From: Promethearchaeota archaeon
GTDB lineage: Archaea > Asgardarchaeota > Lokiarchaeia > Sigyniarchaeales > SOKP01
NCBI GenBank assembly: GCA_016839705.1
Contig: JAEOTR010000053.1
Location: 1 to 64,000, forward strand
Length of the DNA: 64,000 nucleotides
Direction: 5' to 3'
The position numbers were made by a program, and so were the translations under genes. Below, in pieces: positions 20,103 to 52,157 of this stretch. Below the pieces are notes generated by a model. It worked only from the letters and a program-made list of their open reading frames with translations. It had not been told where the DNA came from and did not search any database. The first letter of the stretch is position 1, and each line of letters starts with the position of its first letter.

Positions 20103-20834
20103 TTGAGAAAAAAAAGTTATGACTACTTATCCTTATTAATAATAATATGGCTTTACTCATTTATCATACCTGTAATAGCCTTAAACGAAAATAAATCCCT
20201 AACGCCAATTGCGGACTCTTTCATCGATTTCTATGAACCTACTTTAAATTTTGGTGACGATCATTATCTTAGATTAGGATATTATAGTGATTTTTTTAGA
20301 GGGTATCTAGAAAATAGCAGTCCCGCACAGTTTGAGACATTTATCAAATTCGATCTATCCCAAGCCCCATCAATTTTTTATAAAATAGAATTACGCTTAG
20401 AATTAACTTATATTAAAGCACCTACGCAAGTAGAATTCTATGAAACATTTTCATATTGGAATGAGGATACAATTACATGGAACAATGCACCCTCATACAG
20501 GATTTTACTCACATCTATTTTAATATCTCAAGCTGGTTTCTTAACGGTTGATCTAACAGATTTTCTTGAAGATGAGACAGGAGATTGGTCTATATGCCTT
20601 GCTACAAACGATTTAAATCCGGTAGCAATTGCTTCCAGACAGTGCTATACTCATGAGGAGTCAGGGCTAAATTTTGATCCTCCTAAATTAATCTATCACT
20701 ATAAAGTGAGTGATTTACCGATAATTATTGGGGTAACTGTGGCAATAGGAGCAGTCTCAATTATAGGAGGACTAATTTATGCTAAATATAGGAGAAACCG
20801 AAAGGTAATTCTTGAGGAACCTTATAATAACTAA
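20103..20834 (+). CDS. Secreted, membrane-anchored DNRLRE/CBM96-like domain protein
   Basis: Signal-like N-terminus, ADSFI...P..NFG, FIKFDLS, WNEDTITWNNAP, PKLIY, then a C-terminal TM and basic tail. Confidence 0.75.
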   Translation: MRKKSYDYLSLLIIIWLYSFIIPVIALNENKSLTPIADSFIDFYEPTLNFGDDHYLRLGYYSDFFRGYLENSSPAQFETFIKFDLSQAPSIFYKIELRLELTYIKAPTQVEFYETFSYWNEDTITWNNAPSYRILLTSILISQAGFLTVDLTDFLEDETGDWSICLATNDLNPVAIASRQCYTHEESGLNFDPPKLIYHYKVSDLPIIIGVTVAIGAVSIIGGLIYAKYRRNRKVILEEPYNN

Positions 20835-25709: not shown

Positions 25710-26156
25710 TTGAAGGAACTTTACGAGTTAGGTTTTGTCTTTCGAGGATTTGTCCTTGTGAGTTATGATTTTAAAAGTTTACCTGATAAGAAAGAACTTG
25801 GTGTCAATAAAGATCTTAGGGGTGCTTTTATCTCTGCTATAAATGCTTTTGCTGATACCGCGTTCAATAAAAGCTCAATTGAGTATCTAGAATCTGGAAA
25901 TATATTATTTATCTTTAAAATGGCTGAGATTCAATCAAGCGATAATGATTTTAAAGAATCATTAATTTTATATGGTTTAGTTGATAAATCAAAGAAGAAA
26001 TCCGATAAACTTGTTAGGAAATTCTTTGAAAGAATAGATCCAATATTTCAATTGTTTCTTCAAAAATTTAGCGGAGCTAATTTTACTGAATTAAATCAAT
26101 TTGAAAATTTTGAAAAGATTGTAGGAGAATTCTTCATTAAAAAAACAGATGATTGA
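25710..26156 (+). CDS. Stand-alone longin-domain-like protein
   Basis: beta-beta-alpha-beta3-alpha-alpha pattern; DLRGAFISAINAFA helix, IEYLESGNILFIF hairpin, F...F...FENFEKIV end. Confidence 0.65.
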   Translation: MKELYELGFVFRGFVLVSYDFKSLPDKKELGVNKDLRGAFISAINAFADTAFNKSSIEYLESGNILFIFKMAEIQSSDNDFKESLILYGLVDKSKKKSDKLVRKFFERIDPIFQLFLQKFSGANFTELNQFENFEKIVGEFFIKKTDD

Positions 26157-27848
26157 TTATTTTACTAAACTCCATCCTTTTGGCTTAGTTCGAGAATAAG
26201 TAATTATCCCTTGTTCTCTTAAAGAATCAATTTCTTTTTCGATGCTACTTTTATCGAATCCTTTTACGATAATATCGTTAATGAATTGGGGTTTAGTAGC
26301 AATTACTCCTTGATCACTTAAATGTTGGATAATCACATCTTTTAACGATTCACCAGTACTGACTTTTTCGGTTGGTGTTTCCTTCTCTACTGGAACTTTC
26401 TGTTCTGTAGGTTTCACTTTTTCAGGTTCACTGCTGAGGGCTACTCTTAATTTTTCTTTATCTGTTTTGATTGGTTCTTCTATCACCATATGTTTAACTG
26501 ACACTTTCTGTTCTTCAACAGGTACTTCAACTTCCTCTTTTCCTTCTATTTCCTCACCTGGTAGGCTCCAAACAGGATAAACAATTTTTTCATACAATAT
26601 TGATTTCTGAGTGCTCATTATGTCCAATTCATTGGAGATATCTTCTTGATTATATCCTAAATCTGTTAGTTCCTTTACTAAGTCTTTCATATATCCTTTC
26701 TCATTAAGAATTTTGAAGATATGTTCCCTTATATTAGTGGGAACCTCTTTTATATCGGTTAAGTCCTCAATAGCTAAATCCTTCTTCCTTTCACTTATTT
26801 CTGGTTCATCAATCATTTGAGGAATGTTAAGAATTTTTTTTTGACCCCATTCAAAATCAGTTACATTCCTAATAGTACGGTCGTACCCTCCGAACACTAT
26901 ATGTTTTAAATCTGGTTCATTGCCTGTTAGATAACACACATGCTTAATCGATGTAGGGATTTTTGTTTTCCATTTTAATTCGATATCTTTTGAATTCAAT
27001 TCAGGATTATGAAATACCTTCAATGAACCATCGGCACACCCCGTAATAATTTCCAGTGCTTTATCTCCATCTATATCTGCAATTAACACAGAAATCGGAC
27101 GTCCCTCTTCAACTTTAATTTCCTTTACATGCTCTCCCTCGCTATTAAGAATTTTTATTGTGGAATCATCGGTGCCTAATATAATTTCATTCAATCCATC
27201 ATTAGTCACGTCACCAACCTGTATTGTATTGATCTGTGATGAAAAATTTCTATTCCACAAAATTTCAGGAAAGTTATTTTTAATATGAATTAATTGTAAT
27301 ACGCCACTTTTTGTGCCAACTAGTAATCCATAAAGTGATTTTTTCTCATTTGGTAATTTTATAATTCCTAAGGCACATGCCGTAACCCAAGAATCAAAGT
27401 AGAAAATAAATTTTGGCTCCTTTGCTTCAATACTGTCAAAAATCTTGATTGTTTTATCCTCACTGCCAATTATTAACTCGATATTCCCATCCCTCGTTAA
27501 ATCCCCTGCGATGCAACAAATAACTTTTTTAGTAGATTTATATCTCATTAATCCAACGAGTTTTTTCTTTTCTGCATTTAATTTTAACACCATGAAGTTG
27601 CCATCACCAGCACCAACTAATATCTCATCACAACCATCTCCATCTAGATCAATCGGATAACTGCATCGACACCATCCATCGAATACTCTATCATCAATAA
27701 TATTCATTTCTTCATCCATTAAATATAATGTCTTATCATGACCGCCAAAAGCTAAGAAATTTTTATCTTTACATTTCATAACTGAACATGTAAGAACCGC
27801 ATCTGGGCATTCAAAAGTCCAATTCAGTTGATACCGTTTTCTTATCAT
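26157..27848 (-). CDS. FG-GAP-type beta-propeller (BBS2/ITFG2-like) with two C-terminal winged-helix-like domains
   Basis: Repeats DLDGDGCDEILVG, GDLTRDGNIELIIGSED, GDVTNDGLNEIILG, ADIDGDKALEIITG; no signal peptide; two related C-terminal modules ending in WSL. Confidence 0.75.
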   Translation of the reverse strand: MIRKRYQLNWTFECPDAVLTCSVMKCKDKNFLAFGGHDKTLYLMDEEMNIIDDRVFDGWCRCSYPIDLDGDGCDEILVGAGDGNFMVLKLNAEKKKLVGLMRYKSTKKVICCIAGDLTRDGNIELIIGSEDKTIKIFDSIEAKEPKFIFYFDSWVTACALGIIKLPNEKKSLYGLLVGTKSGVLQLIHIKNNFPEILWNRNFSSQINTIQVGDVTNDGLNEIILGTDDSTIKILNSEGEHVKEIKVEEGRPISVLIADIDGDKALEIITGCADGSLKVFHNPELNSKDIELKWKTKIPTSIKHVCYLTGNEPDLKHIVFGGYDRTIRNVTDFEWGQKKILNIPQMIDEPEISERKKDLAIEDLTDIKEVPTNIREHIFKILNEKGYMKDLVKELTDLGYNQEDISNELDIMSTQKSILYEKIVYPVWSLPGEEIEGKEEVEVPVEEQKVSVKHMVIEEPIKTDKEKLRVALSSEPEKVKPTEQKVPVEKETPTEKVSTGESLKDVIIQHLSDQGVIATKPQFINDIIVKGFDKSSIEKEIDSLREQGIITYSRTKPKGWSLVK

Positions 27849-28002
27849 AATTTCTAAAAAGATCCTTCAGATTATGGAATCTTTTGATAATACTTAAAAT
27901 TAACTTTTCTGTTTACTCTAATTATAATTAGCTCAGAATTATTAAAGGATTAGTGTAATATAACTAAAAAAAATAAAAAAGTTAAAAAGAATAGTATTAA
28001 AA

Positions 28003-30150
28003 TTATAATGCTAATTGAGCATCTGATGGACTATATTCACCGGTACCATTAATTTCATATGAGATTTCTAAATTCTCTCCAATATCTAGTACATCAATTT
28101 CCCATCTCAAGGTATCTTGCCCTACTTCATCAGTTATTTCTGGTTTCATTGAATAAGAACCATATTCAAATTGATCTGGAACCTTATCAAGAAGGACCAT
28201 CGTATGCAATTTAGATTCACCAATATTTTCAAGAGTCAAAATAATTCTATAATTACCGAGTTCACCAATTGGAACAACTTCTTTACTTGTACGGAATTTC
28301 CTTCTGATATGAAGAGCTTCAATAATAGGAACTTCAGGTTTGAATTCTAATTCTTGACTAACAGGATATGTATTTGCGTGGTAAACTATTTCTGATTCAA
28401 ACGTGGAATCTCGAGCCGGATTTACACAGTGAATAGGATACTGGAATTCTAAAGTTGAATCTGGTTTAAACATACCTGTGCTAGTATCTTTAAGATTTTT
28501 CAATAAGATGGTAAAAACATCCCCGTCAAGATTGACCGCATCAGAAGAAAGCTCGACTTCATCACCATCCCAAATTAATTTTATTTCGCTTGCACTAGGT
28601 GGTTTATATTCTTCAGTGAAAGATTGTTGTATCACAGTAATTTCGTTTAATGGAGCAGAACCATTATTTGCCATTTTGAGAGTAGCCATAACATCTTGAG
28701 CTTTATAGGTGGGAGTTTCAACCTTATCATATCCCATATCTCCAGTTATACTTGCTATTTCTAATATAACATCTGAGATTGCAACTGCAACAGTCACTTG
28801 ATATTGATAATCAGGAACAACTCGAAATTCAAGTTTCTTCCTAAATGTTGGATAGTCTTCACTTTCATACTGCCATTTAACTGAATGCCACTGAGCTCCT
28901 GATGGTAACATTGGAACATCATTGGGATCAATATCAACGAATTTTGTCCCCTCATCATCAGGAGAGTATACATCAGCATTAAAAAGCTGAATCACGAATT
29001 CAGAAGAGTTATCAAAAATTAATTTATTATCCCAAATGTTTGGTTCTTCGTCTCTTTCAAGAGTATCAATATAAAATTTATTTCGAGTATATGCGTCAAA
29101 TTTATCAATAGCTAAACCTTCGGCAAAAGAAGAAGCTGCTTTATAGGTAACGTCAATAGTACCAGTTCTTCTTCTAGCGATGTCATTTACCATAATATTA
29201 CATGTGAATTTAAGTACAACAGTATAATCTGGTCTTAATTTCTCTATTTTCCAAACAATTTTATCTCCTTCAATTTCTGCTCTTCCTTCTGTTGTATCTC
29301 GTACCACAGGATTTGTAAAATCATCTGGTATGGTTTTGATTACTTCAATATCAGATATAGGTTTATCAAATGTATTTCTTAACGCAATGGCGAATGTAAT
29401 AGTATTTTCTCTATCAATTGAAATGCCAAAGGTCTCTAAACCTGTTTCAACAGCAGTTCCACCATCTTCCCATTTTTCTCCGTCTTCATTTTCTTCTTCA
29501 TCGTCATCTTCTTCTGTAGTTGGTGGTATGGTTACTACAGCTTTTTTAGTTACTTTACCTGTTTTATTTTTAATTTTTAGCAATTCTCTTTCAATATCAT
29601 TGATATTTAAAACGTCATCAGCTTTAGAGAGAGAACTGATAAATTCTTTAACCAAAAAAAGATTTTGGACATCTTTTTTTAATTCAAATTCTTTGGTTTC
29701 TACGTTATCTGGGTACTCCGTACCTAATTCCCTTATTGATATATCTTTCGATTTCAAATTTGTACTAGCAATATTATTGAGTGAAACGTCAATGTCCCAA
29801 AGACGATCTGATTTACTAGGATTTTCTATACTAATTTTTCCTCCAAAGCTAAAAGATTTAACATTAGCGTCATGATCTTGTTTTACTTCGACATCCTCAA
29901 TTATCTTTACTAATGCCAATAACCCTTCTCGGTTACGATCTTTCAATAGTATACTGCCTTCTAGTTGTCCTGTATCTTCGTCATATGTCTCAATAACTGG
30001 TGTAGCAGTGTCTCTATCTACTAGCTTTACTTTTCCGTCATCCATGTCTGTTCTTTTTAACCCTTCTGCTACTAGTTCTTCACCTGCTTCAGATTTATCC
30101 CATCCCATACGTGATGGTTTCTTTTCCTTTTTCTTATCCTTTTTTCCCAT
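28003..30150 (-). CDS. Cytoplasmic beta-sandwich protein with mu-homology-domain-like region and extra Ig-like domains
   Basis: Three ordered blocks resemble adaptin mu / delta-COP C-terminal domain (see findings); acidic insert; no signal peptide or TM. Confidence 0.6.
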   Translation of the reverse strand: MGKKDKKKEKKPSRMGWDKSEAGEELVAEGLKRTDMDDGKVKLVDRDTATPVIETYDEDTGQLEGSILLKDRNREGLLALVKIIEDVEVKQDHDANVKSFSFGGKISIENPSKSDRLWDIDVSLNNIASTNLKSKDISIRELGTEYPDNVETKEFELKKDVQNLFLVKEFISSLSKADDVLNINDIERELLKIKNKTGKVTKKAVVTIPPTTEEDDDEEENEDGEKWEDGGTAVETGLETFGISIDRENTITFAIALRNTFDKPISDIEVIKTIPDDFTNPVVRDTTEGRAEIEGDKIVWKIEKLRPDYTVVLKFTCNIMVNDIARRRTGTIDVTYKAASSFAEGLAIDKFDAYTRNKFYIDTLERDEEPNIWDNKLIFDNSSEFVIQLFNADVYSPDDEGTKFVDIDPNDVPMLPSGAQWHSVKWQYESEDYPTFRKKLEFRVVPDYQYQVTVAVAISDVILEIASITGDMGYDKVETPTYKAQDVMATLKMANNGSAPLNEITVIQQSFTEEYKPPSASEIKLIWDGDEVELSSDAVNLDGDVFTILLKNLKDTSTGMFKPDSTLEFQYPIHCVNPARDSTFESEIVYHANTYPVSQELEFKPEVPIIEALHIRRKFRTSKEVVPIGELGNYRIILTLENIGESKLHTMVLLDKVPDQFEYGSYSMKPEITDEVGQDTLRWEIDVLDIGENLEISYEINGTGEYSPSDAQLAL

Positions 30151-30421
30151 TTTTCCTTACCAGTTTTTAATTTTTTTTTAGATTGAAAATTTATTTAAGA
30201 GTTAATAAAAGTTAACCCAATAACATAAAATCTACTGCACTCTTTAAAAAATTTTTCATACTAAAGAAATAGGATATTAATCAAAACTCAGTGAGGTATA
30301 TTGTTATAGAAATTTGAGTATTTTTTACCATTTCAATTTGATTTCTTAGTAATAAAATACGTGTCTATATATTTATGACCACACTTTGAACACACATTAT
30401 TTATCATTTTTGTGTAAACTA

Positions 30422-31858
30422 TCATGATTCTTTTCTTTGCAGTAAAACAAAAAGCAAATCATTTACATTACACCCCGTTGGGCCTGTTACTATCTCAGTT
30501 TCAACAATTTTGAAAAATTTATTCGAATTATTATTTTCAAGATAGGTCTTTAGGTTAATATCTTTTTTATATATTTGATCTAATACGAAATTGTCTATTA
30601 ATGCACCCATCGCTTCGCTATTTCCTTCAATACCATCAAGGTTAGCACCTACAATCAAAAATTCATAAGGGATTTCCTTCTCTTTTACAAAGTCTAAAAA
30701 ACTTAACAACATTTCTTGATTTCTACCCCCAATGCCTTTACCTTTAATTGTCACAGTTAACTCCCCTGTACCAATTAGTGCAAGTTTTCCAGAAGACTTG
30801 TTTTCAATTTTTCCATTAGATTTTTGAGAAATTATCATATACAATGATTTTCCAAATTTTGATGCTTCACCACTTATTTCATTTGAAAAATAGGTTAATT
30901 CAAATCCTTCCTTCTCCAATAAGGAAATGGCTTCTTCTGCGGCAGATTTAACACTGCCTACAATATAGTTATGAACATTATTAAAGCACTCATCATTGAG
31001 CTTAGGGGTTTCTAATTTGTCATCTAGCAATCCTTCTTCTAAATAGTTAATAACAGATATGGGGATCTTATCGTAAATACGATATTTCTTCAGTATTTCT
31101 ATAGCATCATTAAAAGTAGTAGTATCTGGAACAGAAGGTCCAGATGCGATAGAGTCTAGTTTGTCTCCTACAACATCTGAAATAATTATAGAAATTAAGG
31201 TTGCTTTACTTGCATTATATAATTTTTTAGCAAGATTCCCTCCTTTAAAGTCTGATACATGTTTTCGGATAGTGTTAATTTCATGAATAGAGGCACCAGA
31301 TGCTAAGAGAAGAGAGTTAACTATTTGTAAATCTTGAAGACTAATACCCGGTTTTGGTAAAGGCAAAAGAGCAGATCCTCCACCAGAGATTAAACAAATA
31401 ATTAAATCATTTTTGTCAGATGTTTCAACAATCTTCATCATTAATTTTGTTCCCTTCAATCCATTTTTATCTGGAACGGGATGGGCGGCATAATTTAATT
31501 TTATTTTACTTCCCCGATTTTCAGATTTCACTGTACCTTTTGGGATGTTAATTATTCCGTCATAAGCAATGTCTGTATAATTTAGTAAGATTTTCTCAAG
31601 GGATAATGCCATCTCCGCAGTTGCCTTTCCCCCCCCAATAATAAAAATATTTTTATATTTCCTGAGATCATATTGGTCATTATGAATAAGTAATACATTA
31701 TCTTGGATTTTTAATGCTTTTCCAATTAAATTTTGAGGTTTTACAGCGGTAATAGACTTTTCAATAACTTCCATTGCTAATTTTCTTAGAAAGATTTGGT
31801 TTTGGTCTAAATCTTTTCCAAGAAGTCTAATAGCATTTTTTATATACAATAAAAACAC
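30422..31858 (-). CDS. Glycerate 2-kinase (MOFRL family)
   Basis: GGGKA, HPVPD, ISGGGSAL, SDVVGD....IASGP, GGRNQE, TGPTGCNVND. Confidence 0.93.
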   Translation of the reverse strand: MFLLYIKNAIRLLGKDLDQNQIFLRKLAMEVIEKSITAVKPQNLIGKALKIQDNVLLIHNDQYDLRKYKNIFIIGGGKATAEMALSLEKILLNYTDIAYDGIINIPKGTVKSENRGSKIKLNYAAHPVPDKNGLKGTKLMMKIVETSDKNDLIICLISGGGSALLPLPKPGISLQDLQIVNSLLLASGASIHEINTIRKHVSDFKGGNLAKKLYNASKATLISIIISDVVGDKLDSIASGPSVPDTTTFNDAIEILKKYRIYDKIPISVINYLEEGLLDDKLETPKLNDECFNNVHNYIVGSVKSAAEEAISLLEKEGFELTYFSNEISGEASKFGKSLYMIISQKSNGKIENKSSGKLALIGTGELTVTIKGKGIGGRNQEMLLSFLDFVKEKEIPYEFLIVGANLDGIEGNSEAMGALIDNFVLDQIYKKDINLKTYLENNNSNKFFKIVETEIVTGPTGCNVNDLLFVLLQRKES

Positions 31859-36657: not shown

Positions 36658-37614
36658 TTACTGAAATATCTCTATTATAGAGTCATCCCTAATATAATCT
36701 TTTGCATTGTAGTTTTTAATATTACTTATTATCTTATTGTAATCTGATCTAATTTGGTAGATTAAAGAGTGATGTTTATCCCCAAGAATATCATTAATAC
36801 TTCGATTAAAGGTTTTAGAGTGCATCATAGAATGACAATTTGAATATAAACAAACGCATTTTTCATCTATCAATAAATTTGTTATTTTTTTTATGCTATA
36901 TTTTGATATTTTATCCCATTTTATTACAGTATCCTTTTTAGATGGTAATATATGATGAAATCCTAGTGATGGAAGATTATTCTCTATTGTTATTTCTTGA
37001 CAACCAATACATGTACCACCATATAATTTCTCAACAATGTATCTTTTTTTAATCCATTTCTTAATTATATACTTAGCTTTTGATTTGTAATATTTAACTT
37101 GTCTAATCTTAGTTTTTATAAACCAATTATTATTAAGCGATATATCTATGTTTTTTTCAATTTCCTCTGGGTTATTAAGGAATAAGGATGATTGAAGTAT
37201 TAAGTTTTTAAACTGTTTAAAAATGGTTGATTTTATCATGATATGACAATTCTTACATAAAACTACAACATTATCCTTATGCAATAAATCTAAAGTTTTA
37301 TTATAGTTTCTTCCTCTTAAAGATTTCCATGAACATGACTTAGATTTTGGGTTAAGATGATGAAATTCTAAGGAGGGAAGCTTTTCTATACTAACATTAC
37401 AATTAGAACATTTGCTATTATAATTCTCAATAATAACCCTTAGCTTTTTCTTAAAGTTTTTTATCAGATTTAATATATTTCTACATTGATCACAAATTGA
37501 GCGAAGACGCCCCTGTCGTTTACTAAATTCTCTGTGCATTTTGATTTTATGGCATTTTCCACATTCCTTTCTCTTACCATCATTGAATAATTTCTGACGT
37601 GTGTTTTTTTCCAT
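36658..37614 (-). CDS. Tandem Cys-rich HNH-like endonuclease with N-terminal zinc finger
   Basis: CxxC...CxxC N-terminus, then two CxxC...L.FHH...(C/Y)xNCH units. Confidence 0.7.
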   Translation of the reverse strand: MEKNTRQKLFNDGKRKECGKCHKIKMHREFSKRQGRLRSICDQCRNILNLIKNFKKKLRVIIENYNSKCSNCNVSIEKLPSLEFHHLNPKSKSCSWKSLRGRNYNKTLDLLHKDNVVVLCKNCHIMIKSTIFKQFKNLILQSSLFLNNPEEIEKNIDISLNNNWFIKTKIRQVKYYKSKAKYIIKKWIKKRYIVEKLYGGTCIGCQEITIENNLPSLGFHHILPSKKDTVIKWDKISKYSIKKITNLLIDEKCVCLYSNCHSMMHSKTFNRSINDILGDKHHSLIYQIRSDYNKIISNIKNYNAKDYIRDDSIIEIFQ

Positions 37615-48862: not shown

Positions 48863-50422
48863 TTAATATTTATCATCAATAACGGAGAGCATTGACTCTA
48901 ACTGATCGAATATATCTAAACGAAAAGCTGTTCCGATTCTAAAGAAGAAGAGATCAATTGTTCTATTCTCAAGTTGATCATCCACGTTCAATTCCTCTAA
49001 TATTTGAGACCAACTCGTACTTTCTGTTGCTCTTATTCCAATTAATACAACTCCCTTATCTTTAGAGTTTTCAATGATTTTAATAATAATCTCTTTCCAT
49101 TGGGGGTCAACATGTTCTTTGTCTCTTGCATCAAAGATACAAAATACTCCATCAGAACTCGAGACATCGTCAGCTGCAGAATAAACATGCTGTTTTGTAA
49201 TTAGACCATTTGGATATTGGTAAACTTGTTCATCCTCATAATCTCTTACTAATGTTTGATCTCCTAATTTCTTTATATCACCAATAATTTGAAGTCCTGG
49301 ACTCCACATTGTGTTATCTGCAACAAACGAAAGGGTAAAGACAATTTTTTTCTTTATAATAGAGGATATTTTTTCATATAATAGTTCACTGCGTCTTTCA
49401 TCTTCGATTTCTTTGCTCTTCATTACGTAATGAAATGAAATCAAATTGAAAGCATCCTCTATATTCTCTCCGGTCAATGCGCTTGTTTCGATATAAGATA
49501 ACTTTATTATTTCTTTGTCAGATATTTTATTTGCTTGCTTTACTCCTTCTTGATAAAAGACTTGCCGTTCTTCACTCAAGTCTGATTTATTGCCAACTAA
49601 TACAATGGGGATTTCCTCATCGGTTGTAAACTCCTTTAGTTCGCGGTACCAGTTCAATACGTTATTAAATGACTCGCGCTTTGATAGATCAAAAACAATA
49701 AATGCTGCTTGAGCCCCTGAATAATAGACTTTTCGAAAACGACGAAAAAACTTTTGAGCTCCCAAGTCATATAATGTTACACCAATTTCGTTCCCAAAAA
49801 ATTCAAAGTTGTGAGTTAAAATATTAAGCCCTATAGTTGCCCTGTAATCTTCTGAAAACTTTTTTTCGACAAACCTACGAATAATAGAAGTTTTTCCAAC
49901 TTCATGATCACCCAAAATAACGAATTTAAAACGGTATTCCCCTTTAGTTGTTAAATCCATTTGATATAGTTGATTTTTCAACCGATCCACATTTTCTACC
50001 TCAAATTCGAAATTAGGGACGGATAATTGGATCAAATCGCCTTCTTCAGCTGATAAAATCTGAGCAGTTTTCTCGGCGAGAAATAATCCATAAGGGGAGA
50101 GTTTCTCAGGTGAAGCCATATGGTTTAATACTAAACTTAAGATGCGCTCTTCGTCAACTGATATAAACAATAAACGGTGATCTTCTGTATCAAAACTGGT
50201 ATTCCCAAATTTTTTGAATGAAAATTCGTTTCTCATTCTCTCCAAAACAGGATTTACAATAGAAGTTAAGACAGAAACAAGTTCGATGTCAACGTCTTTC
50301 CTCTTCTCACCTGCAATTATAAGACCTTCACTGTCTGAAACAATGACAGCTTCAACCTCCATATTAATCTCCAGAAACTTATTAAACAATTCAGTAAAAA
50401 ATTTATTTTTTCTTAAGACCAA
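48863..50422 (-). CDS. Roadblock + Rab-like small GTPase + degenerate GTPase-like domain (paralog B)
   Basis: N-terminal VEAVIVSDSEGLIIA; G1 GDHEVGKTS, G2 ATIG, G3 DLGAQ, G4 NKSD, G5 TSAL. Confidence 0.88.
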   Translation of the reverse strand: MVLRKNKFFTELFNKFLEINMEVEAVIVSDSEGLIIAGEKRKDVDIELVSVLTSIVNPVLERMRNEFSFKKFGNTSFDTEDHRLLFISVDEERILSLVLNHMASPEKLSPYGLFLAEKTAQILSAEEGDLIQLSVPNFEFEVENVDRLKNQLYQMDLTTKGEYRFKFVILGDHEVGKTSIIRRFVEKKFSEDYRATIGLNILTHNFEFFGNEIGVTLYDLGAQKFFRRFRKVYYSGAQAAFIVFDLSKRESFNNVLNWYRELKEFTTDEEIPIVLVGNKSDLSEERQVFYQEGVKQANKISDKEIIKLSYIETSALTGENIEDAFNLISFHYVMKSKEIEDERRSELLYEKISSIIKKKIVFTLSFVADNTMWSPGLQIIGDIKKLGDQTLVRDYEDEQVYQYPNGLITKQHVYSAADDVSSSDGVFCIFDARDKEHVDPQWKEIIIKIIENSKDKGVVLIGIRATESTSWSQILEELNVDDQLENRTIDLFFFRIGTAFRLDIFDQLESMLSVIDDKY

Positions 50423-50570
50423 GTATCCTTTACCCCAATTATTTATATCTATATTATGAATTTACTTACTATTATTTGTTGTTGTTATTAAATTATAAAA
50501 CATATTTAACTAGTTAATGAACTCTCAAAAAATTATTCCTATAGAAGTACAGTAAACTAAGATATTCGAG

Positions 50571-52157
50571 CTATAGATATCTTATTGTATTTAACATAAC
50601 CTTGAGCTGATCATAAATTTCCAATCTATATTCAACCCCTAATTTGAAAAACAATAAAGATATCATTTTCTCTTCTAATAATTCATTTACGTCAAATTCT
50701 TCCATTATCAGAGACCAATCACTTTCATCAGAGACGCGAATGCCAATTAATACTACTTTATTTTCTTTCATCTCATTTATGGTTTTTATAACAACATCTC
50801 GCCATGCTGGATCGACATGATCCTTATAACGAGCATCAAAGATACAAAACACGCCGTCAGCATCAGACACTTCAAAATTGTGATAAAGATAATTTTTTAG
50901 AGTAACCCCATTTGAAAATCTGTATAATTTCTCGTCTCTCTCATCTTTAAGTTTCTTACAATCTTCTAAACCGTTGATCTCAGCCAAAATCTGTAGTCCA
51001 GGACTCCAAAATTCATTTTCAGAGATTATTGTTAAAGTTAAAAGAGTATCCATAGGTACACCGATTATTTTCTTTTCCTTCAAGATATTATTTAACTCGT
51101 TCACTAAATCCTGTTTGACAATCTCTTCCTCTTCCTCTTTACTTTTCGATATATAGTGATATGCAATTAAAGTAAACGCGTCCTCAACATTTTCACCTGT
51201 TAGCGCACTCGTTTCAATATAGGATATTGCTATGTTTGGCTTATTCAGTAATTCATTTACTACTTGTACACCATCTTCATAACTAACTTCTCTCTGATCT
51301 CGTAGATCACTTTTATTTCCAATGATAATTATTGGTATTTCTCTTCCCCCAATAAAATCCTCTAATTCTTTATACCATTCTTTTAAACTTTCAAAAGATT
51401 TTCTATTCGTGAGATCAAATACTATAAATGCTGCTTGTGCACCTAAGTAATAGGTTTGTCGAAATCTTCGGAAAAATGTTTGAGCCCCAACATCCCACAG
51501 ACTATAGACGATATTATTGCCATAAAAGTCATAAGAATGACTTAGAATATTTAATCCTATTGTTGCACGATAGTCGTGAGAAAATCTATTTTCTACAAAT
51601 CGTCTAACTAGACTTGTTTTTCCTACTTCATGATCGCCTATTATTATAAATTTGAATCGATATAACCCTCCCTGATCTAATCGCAATTGATATATTTGGT
51701 TTTTTACTCTTTCATTGTAAGCGGTTTCATCTGTTTCATACTCAAAATTAGGAATATTTAGCTGAATACTATCACCTTCTTCAGCATTTAAAATTTGTAC
51801 TGATTTTTCTGCGAGTAAATATGCATAAGGAGATGCTTTATCAACTGATGCTAAATTATTTAGTACAAGGCTCAAAGTTCTACTTTCATCTAAAGAAATA
51901 AATAACAGTCTATAAAATTCTGTATCAAAGCTAGCTGTTCCAAATTTTTTGAAAGCAAACTCATCACGTATCCTTTCTACGATTGGATTTATTATTGATG
52001 TTAAGACTGAGACAATTTCTATATCCACGTCACTTCTTTTTTCACCTGCTATGACTAAACCAAGCCGATCACTCACGATCACCGCCTCTACATCGTCATT
52101 TATTAGCAAAAATTGATTAAAAAGTTCCGTGAAGAGTTTAGTTCGATTTATCAACAA
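50571..52157 (-). CDS. Roadblock + Rab-like small GTPase + degenerate GTPase-like domain (paralog A)
   Basis: VEAVIVSDRLGLVIA; GDHEVGKTS, ATIG, DVGAQ, NKSD, TSAL; colinear with 48863..50422. Confidence 0.88.
   Translation of the reverse strand: MLINRTKLFTELFNQFLLINDDVEAVIVSDRLGLVIAGEKRSDVDIEIVSVLTSIINPIVERIRDEFAFKKFGTASFDTEFYRLLFISLDESRTLSLVLNNLASVDKASPYAYLLAEKSVQILNAEEGDSIQLNIPNFEYETDETAYNERVKNQIYQLRLDQGGLYRFKFIIIGDHEVGKTSLVRRFVENRFSHDYRATIGLNILSHSYDFYGNNIVYSLWDVGAQTFFRRFRQTYYLGAQAAFIVFDLTNRKSFESLKEWYKELEDFIGGREIPIIIIGNKSDLRDQREVSYEDGVQVVNELLNKPNIAISYIETSALTGENVEDAFTLIAYHYISKSKEEEEEIVKQDLVNELNNILKEKKIIGVPMDTLLTLTIISENEFWSPGLQILAEINGLEDCKKLKDERDEKLYRFSNGVTLKNYLYHNFEVSDADGVFCIFDARYKDHVDPAWRDVVIKTINEMKENKVVLIGIRVSDESDWSLIMEEFDVNELLEEKMISLLFFKLGVEYRLEIYDQLKVMLNTIRYL

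What the first reader, a model, noticed from the sequence alone, without database searches (positions are those of the whole stretch)
25710..30150. Candidate proto-adaptor/coat locus: longin + BBS2/ITFG2-like propeller + mu-homology protein
Seen: three adjacent cytoplasmic proteins of no metabolic type; 28003..30150 and 26157..27848 are co-oriented, and the longin gene converges on them with abutting stops (26156/26157). Known: eukaryotic adaptor complexes (AP, COPI) use a sigma/zeta longin and a mu/delta longin+MHD subunit together with propeller coat subunits, and the BBSome uses related building blocks. Inference: these are separated modules of a membrane-trafficking-like complex, with the free longin replacing the N-terminal longin missing from the MHD protein. 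No alpha-solenoid partner is present, and convergent orientation does not prove functional linkage.
Basis: partly seen in the sequence, partly recalled or inferred. Interest (0 to 1): 0.88.

Follow-up and report, generated by a model that had tools for sequence, protein, structure and literature searches.

The report
Lokiarchaeal mu-homology and propeller gene pair
An Asgard archaeon has three neighbouring genes whose folds eukaryotes use in vesicle adaptors, but only two of them (a mu-adaptin-like protein and a beta-propeller) stay together across related genomes and may bind each other, while the longin gene looks like a passenger.

Summary
The three ORFs are real and belong to a Lokiarchaeia-type Asgard archaeon. 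The 715-aa protein holds a complete mu-homology domain (Z 15.7 to AP-2 mu2) with one inserted and two trailing Ig-like domains. The 148-aa protein is a generic longin fold. The 563-aa protein is an ITFG2/BBS7-like propeller with a probable winged-helix tail. The trio reading mostly fails. Three separate lineages lost mu-homology and propeller genes but kept the longin in place. Sister families keep the pair within about 7 kb in 10 of 14 genomes, often inverted, without the longin or other flanking genes. A fold of the pair gave weak support only (0.59, best control 0.00). Best reading: a cytoplasmic two-protein scaffold of unproven function, not an AP/COPI complex. The mu-homology family, including an orthologue, is already in Eme 2023. 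Here it also turned up in Thermoplasmatota and as one signal-anchored form, so it is not Asgard-specific. This scan noted the same locus before on other genomes.

The parts
25710..26156 (+). Stand-alone longin-fold protein, 148 aa; family-level neighbour, not co-inherited with the pair
   Evidence: AF2 pLDDT 78 with longin strand/helix order; VIA Z 10.7 to AP-2 mu2 N-domain, tied with synbindin, SRX, VAMP7, CPLANE; no Pfam or PDB sequence hit
26157..27848 (-). Propeller-winged-helix protein, 563 aa, no signal peptide
26847..27848 (-). FG-GAP/WD40-type beta-propeller, residues 1-334, four Asp-rich FG-GAP loops (blade count not tested)
   Evidence: Pfam Beta-prop_BBS7 E 1e-22, BBS2_Mid, Itfg2; profile vs PDB: ITFG2 E 6e-14, BBS7 1e-5, BBS2 7e-5; loops
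26589..26735 (-). Degenerate first winged-helix-like repeat, residues 372-420 (fold inferred)
   Evidence: own repeat HMM E 0.03; Pfam MCM5_C E 0.03
26163..26348 (-). C-terminal winged-helix-like repeat, residues 501-562, motif YSRxxPxGW; 0-4 copies in orthologues (fold inferred, not modelled)
   Evidence: Atlas feature hits to MCM winged helices at 0.82-0.83, a lead only
27964..27990 (-). T-rich tract after the 715-aa gene; possible archaeal terminator (inference)
   Evidence: sequence; bacterial-type scans at chance level
28003..30150 (-). Mu-homology plus Ig-domain protein, 715 aa, acidic (net charge -57), cytoplasmic
   Evidence: AF2 mean pLDDT 86, pTM 0.71
30115..30150 (-). Polybasic N-terminus, residues 1-12; possible anionic-lipid anchor (inference)
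   Evidence: 5 or more K/R in the first 12 residues of 120 of 120 close homologues; absent in the C20 paralogue
28765..29934 (-). Mu-homology domain, residues 73-462, both subdomains, interrupted by two insertions
   Evidence: VIA Z 15.7, rmsd 3.6, 228 aligned to AP-2 mu2 167-437; mu4, mu3, mu1, delta-COP, SGIP1, Syp1 at Z 11-15; profile vs AP-3 mu E 1.6e-4
29431..29628 (-). Helical and acidic disordered insertion, residues about 175-240
   Evidence: pLDDT below 50 at 205-234
28816..29082 (-). Beta-sandwich inserted before the last mu-homology strand, residues about 357-445 (boundaries inferred)
   Evidence: secondary structure; only 228 of residues 73-462 align to mu2
28303..28764 (-). Pilin/cohesin-like Ig domain, residues about 463-616
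   Evidence: VIA Z 13.9 to SpaD and BcpA pilin domains
28006..28302 (-). DUF11-type Ig domain, residues about 617-715
   Evidence: TIGR01451 at 628-669; Pfam DUF11, two stretches

Best explanation
The functional unit is the pair, not the trio. The mu-homology/Ig protein and the propeller protein form a cytoplasmic, non-enzymatic scaffold specific to one lokiarchaeal order. Shown: the folds, order-wide linkage and repeated joint loss. Inferred: the propeller docks on the mu-homology/Ig protein; the polybasic N-terminus holds it on anionic membrane; the mu-homology sheet binds short motifs in tails of membrane proteins by strand addition; the propeller's flexible tail presents a variable number of winged-helix-like repeats that recruit a further partner. 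It would work like a monomeric mu-homology adaptor (stonin/SGIP1 style) that clusters membrane proteins, not like a heterotetrameric AP coat. The longin is a neighbour fixed in one family.
For: Full mu-homology fold. Pair adjacent in 14/14 and 29/29 informative family-level loci. In two sister families the pair lies within about 7 kb in 10 of 14 genomes from seven genera, convergent in 8, while glycerate kinase and the best longin hits lie elsewhere. All linked copies fall in one clade (SH-aLRT 100). Both genes are missing, with the longin in place, in 8 fetched loci from three branches (one clade rejected, AU p 3.5e-7). Complex fold: weak support, 0.59 against best control 0.00; the mark was reached by 58 of 80 solved and 2 of 110 mismatched pairs, but at 0.60 or under by only 7 of those 80 and by both mismatches; runs agree in at least 0% of contacts; partner pLDDT at least 84.
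Against: One deletion removes two adjacent genes, so joint loss overstates coupling. G138 and G415 keep propeller and longin without the mu-homology gene next door; G415 has it elsewhere and it was not found in G138. Unrelated genes (GH26, TFIIB, DUF1028) can sit between the pair. Most Asgard and Thermoplasmatota family members have no propeller neighbour. The position matching the tyrosine-pocket aspartate of mu adaptins appears to be Lys82. No membrane, cargo or binding data exist.
Confidence: 0.45

Rival explanations
1. Ordinary synteny. Three independent proteins sit together by descent and local rearrangement. The mu-homology/Ig protein is a general archaeal Ig-sandwich scaffold that works alone or with other partners.
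For: Glycerate kinase, metallophosphoesterase and LSm are as syntenic as the trio within the family. Family members elsewhere have other neighbours, such as a metallo-beta-lactamase-fold gene in 11 of 20 loci from other Asgard groups. The family is in 19 of 81 genomes of the phylum of a Poseidoniales genome and has a signal-anchored member. Convergent orientation in sister families rules out a conserved operon.
Against: The pair outlives every other neighbour across three families despite inversions and is lost jointly in three branches.
Confidence: 0.33
2. First reader's trio. The longin acts as the detached sigma/N-mu module, and with the mu-homology protein and the propeller forms a proto-adaptor or coat.
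For: All three folds are right. The order is kept in 13 of 13 informative family-level loci. The longin stays beside the propeller in G138 and G415.
Against: The longin is retained in three lineages that lack both partners and is not adjacent in G419, G420 or the sister families. Its structural hits do not favour sigma or mu. There is no solenoid subunit at the locus. From established AP structure (own knowledge), N-mu and sigma assemble on the large subunits, not on the mu-homology domain.
Confidence: 0.12
3. KICSTOR/GATOR-like signalling scaffold. The ITFG2-like propeller and the longin help position a small-GTPase regulator, and the winged helices bind protein or nucleic acid.
For: Best PDB match of the propeller is KICSTOR ITFG2. 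Longins of GATOR1, FLCN and Mon1-Ccz1 appear in the structural list. KICSTOR recruits GATOR1 (PMC11866974).
Against: The ITFG2 match covers propeller blades only. GATOR1 longins rank low (Z 7-8). No small GTPase gene was noted beside the trio. The longin is not co-inherited with the propeller.
Confidence: 0.1

Closest known systems
Asgard 'Adap_comp_sub' (PF00928) candidates of Eme et al. 2023 (PMC10307638, Table S3)
   Same: Same family. By eye, the listed Lokiarchaeales Bin_204 protein matches the window protein along the part shown. The paper reports the mu C-domain and the small-chain domain as not fused in Asgard.
   Different: The passages read give no neighbourhood or partner and call the distribution sparse. 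Here the family is in 251 of 301 Asgard genomes and also in Thermoplasmatota.
Mu subunits of AP-1 to AP-4 and delta-COP; stand-alone mu-homology proteins SGIP1/FCHo/Syp1
   Same: Two-subdomain mu-homology fold, Z 11-16; sequence signal to AP-3 mu and weakly to delta-COP (E 0.08).
   Different: No N-terminal longin; the domain is not C-terminal; one inserted and two trailing Ig domains; tyrosine-pocket aspartate apparently not kept; no large subunits at the locus.
KICSTOR ITFG2 and BBSome BBS2/BBS7 propellers
   Same: FG-GAP-type cytoplasmic propeller. An Asgard-eukaryote BBS7/ITFG2 structural cluster is already catalogued (PMC13734099); I could not check whether it is this family.
   Different: Tail of winged-helix-like repeats instead of the BBS ear, platform and helical domains; no other KICSTOR or BBSome subunit was identified.
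Asgard stand-alone longin/roadblock proteins
   Same: Generic longin fold, many paralogues (130 Roadblock/longin asCOGs in bioRxiv 10.1101/2020.10.19.343400).
   Different: Family-restricted subfamily with no Pfam hit.
DUF11/CLIPPER and pilin-type Ig-repeat surface proteins
   Same: C-terminal domains and mu subdomain B match DUF11 and pilin Ig folds.
   Different: Cytoplasmic, with nested mu-homology topology; only one full-length relative found has a signal anchor (P0385).

Membership tests
AP mu / delta-COP subunit | Two-subdomain mu-homology domain | tested here: met
   VIA Z 15.7, 228 aligned, rmsd 3.6; AP-3 mu E 1.6e-4
AP mu / delta-COP subunit | Longin domain fused N-terminally | tested here: not met
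   Residues 1-72 model as tail, one helix and a hairpin; a broad longin HMM hits none of 150 family representatives
AP mu / delta-COP subunit | Mu-homology domain is the C-terminal domain | tested here: not met
   Two further Ig domains follow, residues 463-715
AP mu subunit | YxxPhi pocket aspartate in strand 1 (mu2 D176; own knowledge) | tested here: inconclusive
   Position three before the conserved Glu85 is Lys in 26/26 close homologues and Asp in 8/78 distant ones; the register rests on a weak delta-COP alignment
Heterotetrameric AP/COPI complex | Two large alpha-solenoid subunits | tested here: inconclusive
   None at the locus; weak Adaptin_N hits on contigs C49 and C55, a model that also rings in Methanosarcina
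Heterotetrameric AP/COPI complex | Small longin subunit inherited with the medium subunit | tested here: not met
   Longin kept where the mu-homology gene is lost and unlinked in sister families
Heterotetrameric AP/COPI complex | Membrane recruitment, cargo binding, coat formation | not testable with these tools
   needs biochemistry
Longin fold | Five-stranded sheet with one helix on one face and two C-terminal helices | tested here: met
Sigma/zeta adaptin | Closer to sigma, zeta or N-mu than to other longins | tested here: inconclusive
   Top Z 10.7-9.8 tied among N-mu, synbindin, SRX, VAMP7, CPLANE, TRAPP, sigma; PF01217 no match and no control rang
BBS2/BBS7 | N-terminal FG-GAP-type propeller | tested here: met
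BBS2/BBS7 | Ear (GAE), platform and helical domains after the propeller (own knowledge) | tested here: not met
   Tail is a short linker with two 60-residue repeats; no such Pfam hit
KICSTOR ITFG2 | Orthology with ITFG2 and presence of KPTN, SZT2, KICS2 | not tested
   no eukaryotic sequences available by reference for a tree; partners not searched

The most novel reading that the evidence does not exclude
The mu-homology protein and the ITFG2/BBS-like propeller form a real membrane-associated cargo adaptor in Lokiarchaeia, an archaeal parallel or forerunner of mu-homology adaptors; and the mu-homology fold itself arose by nesting of archaeal Ig-like surface domains before Asgard, as the Thermoplasmatota and signal-anchored members suggest.
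Probability: 0.2. Interest if true: 0.85.

Novelty: new variant of a known kind. Interest (0 to 1): 0.55.

Why it matters
Adaptor-like domains in Asgard archaea are published as scattered, unfused pieces with no known partners. This gives one a concrete candidate partner that can be tested by co-expression, or in cultured Lokiarchaeia if they carry it, and removes the longin as the obvious partner. The family's presence in Thermoplasmatota and a signal-anchored form bear on whether the mu-homology domain is a true Asgard-eukaryote signature and on where the fold came from.

Tried and rejected
Sequence searches did not identify the longin (Pfam; PDB; Atlas 0.89 lead); only the model did. Foldseek on the whole 715-aa model returned mostly generic multi-Ig matches. 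PF00928 and PF01217 gave no match in the own genome and no control rang, so these are uninformative. Promoter and terminator scans were at chance level. The one RNA run holds only diverged relatives' contigs, mostly over the 715-aa gene; it was selected on this stretch and shows neither expression level nor co-transcription. No fusion of propeller, longin or the winged-helix repeat to a mu-homology member was found among 150 representatives; longer-length homologue searches were not run. G418, G448, G423 and G210 lack the whole block including glycerate kinase, so I did not count them as pair losses. The propeller protein was not modelled alone. Papers: no hit for mu-homology domain with archaea terms; supplements of two structural ESP papers were not held. 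The mu-homology tree is a quick LG+G4 tree without eukaryotic rows; the secreted member is a long branch and its place is unsure.
Full report
Observation. Named homologues are mostly Promethearchaeota (Lokiarchaeia). The flanks are metabolic: alcohol dehydrogenase and aldehyde oxidoreductase on one side (read by eye), glycerate kinase-like DUF4147/MOFRL, a dihydrolipoamide dehydrogenase-like gene, a metallophosphoesterase and LSm on the other.

The 715-aa protein. Pfam sees only DUF11, though about a fifth of close homologues carry PF00928. An AF2 model from 105 sequences is confident (pLDDT 86). Residues 73-462 align over the whole mu-homology domain of AP-2 mu2 (Z 15.7, rmsd 3.6, 228 residues), with mu4, mu3, mu1, delta-COP, SGIP1 and Syp1 following. 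The family profile also hits AP-3 mu by sequence (E 1.6e-4). The protein is still not a mu subunit: it has no longin, has an acidic loop and a beta-sandwich inserted in the domain, and has a pilin-like and a DUF11 Ig domain behind it. The position that matches the tyrosine-binding aspartate of mu adaptins appears to be Lys82 (register tentative). The N-terminus is polybasic in 120 of 120 close homologues.

The other two. The 563-aa protein has an FG-GAP-type propeller (BBS7 Pfam E 1e-22; best solved relative KICSTOR ITFG2, E 6e-14) and a tail with a 60-residue repeat ending in YSRxxPxGW, present in 0-4 copies in orthologues. A winged-helix fold for the repeat is inferred from pattern and weak hits. 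The 148-aa protein has no sequence hit but models as a longin; the top matches tie among N-mu, synbindin, SRX, VAMP7 and CPLANE. An iterative search finds some 30-40 longin-like ORFs in the genome, so a longin neighbour is not rare.

Neighbourhood within the family. The order mu-homology, propeller, convergent longin is kept in all informative loci, but so is glycerate kinase. This alone is family-level synteny. The informative cases are the losses. In eight fetched loci (G144, G261, G147, G040, G129, G180, G019, G030; 82-100% complete) both the mu-homology and propeller genes are gone and the longin stays in place, next to glycerate kinase in seven. Neither orthologue was found elsewhere in these genomes. 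On a tree of flanking genes they form three branches, and one clade is rejected (AU p 3.5e-7). The longin is therefore not dependent on the pair. Counter-cases: G138 and G415 keep propeller and longin without the mu-homology gene beside them, and G419 and G420 keep the pair without the longin beside it.

Neighbourhood beyond the family. The propeller orthologue was found only within the order. In two sister families, 10 of 14 genomes with it have a mu-homology gene within about 7 kb: convergent in eight, co-oriented in one, reversed in order in one. Two cases end at contig edges and two were not seen linked. Glycerate kinase and the best longin hits lie on other contigs or 0.7-1 Mb away in the genomes checked. 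All linked copies belong to one clade of the family. Kin are not independent, and I did not measure how often other gene pairs survive this distance.

Complex test. Residues 50-715 folded with the propeller (1-334) gave weak support: 0.59 (runs 0.00, 0.68, 0.59) against a best control of 0.00. The mark was reached by 58 of 80 solved complexes and 2 of 110 mismatched pairs, but at 0.60 or under by only 7 of those 80 and by both mismatches. The runs agree in at least 0% of contacts and partner pLDDT is at least 84. It shifts the odds only a little.

Range of the family. It matches 251 of 301 Asgard genomes. The host has a second copy (C20:14262-16373) in a pan-Asgard clade, whose members in other classes often sit beside a metallo-beta-lactamase-fold gene and showed no propeller neighbour. 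Long matches over the shared domains also occur in Poseidoniales and other Thermoplasmatota (19 of 81 genomes of that phylum), which group loosely with the window's clade (SH-aLRT 87). One relative, P0385, has an N-terminal hydrophobic anchor and the same domain order. The architecture is thus not Asgard-specific; transfer or older origin cannot be told apart here.

Mechanism. Shown: folds, order-wide linkage of the pair, three joint losses, decoupling of the longin. Inferred: a cytoplasmic two-protein scaffold in which a basic tail holds the mu-homology protein at the membrane, its sheet binds short motifs of membrane proteins, and the propeller docks and displays its repeats to another partner. 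I put this at 0.45, plain synteny at 0.33, the trio at 0.12 and a KICSTOR-like role at 0.10.

Known work. Eme et al. 2023 (PMC10307638) report unfused PF00928 and PF01217 domains in Asgard and list what is by eye an orthologue of this protein. A BBS7/ITFG2 Asgard-eukaryote structural cluster is mentioned in PMC13734099. I found no paper on the gene pair.

Verdict. Observation confirmed, interpretation partly supported. New variant of a known kind, interest 0.55.

Noticed in passing
P0385; L086:5001-6992: Full-length family member with an N-terminal signal or membrane anchor, next to an Rce1-like protease gene; host not identified.
   Followed up: partly
L085:4679-7858; L110-L114: Family members in Poseidoniales (long Pro-rich N-terminus, beside a GPN-loop GTPase) and other Thermoplasmatota (between an S26 signal peptidase and another conserved gene).
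   Followed up: partly
G000 C20:14262-16373: Second mu-homology paralogue, 703 aa, with a roughly 100-residue helical C-terminal extension and no polybasic tail.
   Followed up: partly
L089-L107: In 11 of 20 loci from other Asgard groups the mu-homology gene lies next to a 235-aa metallo-beta-lactamase-fold gene.
   Followed up: partly
L046:9242-9538; L047:3632-3952; L115:8542-8799; L120-L122: A small TPR-like helical ORF lies between the pair in three sister-family genomes; by eye, similar helices are fused to the propeller (G419, G420) or to a mu-homology-like copy (G452).
   Followed up: partly
P0301, P0342, P0348, P0388, P0389: Some family members start with a short HEAT-like repeat (HEAT_2 E 0.009 for P0301).
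   Followed up: partly
window 48863-52157: Two tandem 519- and 528-aa proteins that the longin/roadblock iterative search picked up weakly.
   Followed up: no
window 36658-37614: 318-aa ORF with what look by eye like two HNH-endonuclease-type Cys/His repeats.
   Followed up: no
window 30333-30425: 30-aa ORF with one CxxC just upstream of the 715-aa gene; other genomes are noted to have a mini zinc ribbon here.
   Followed up: no
window 20103-20834: Membrane-anchored CBM96-domain protein.
   Followed up: no
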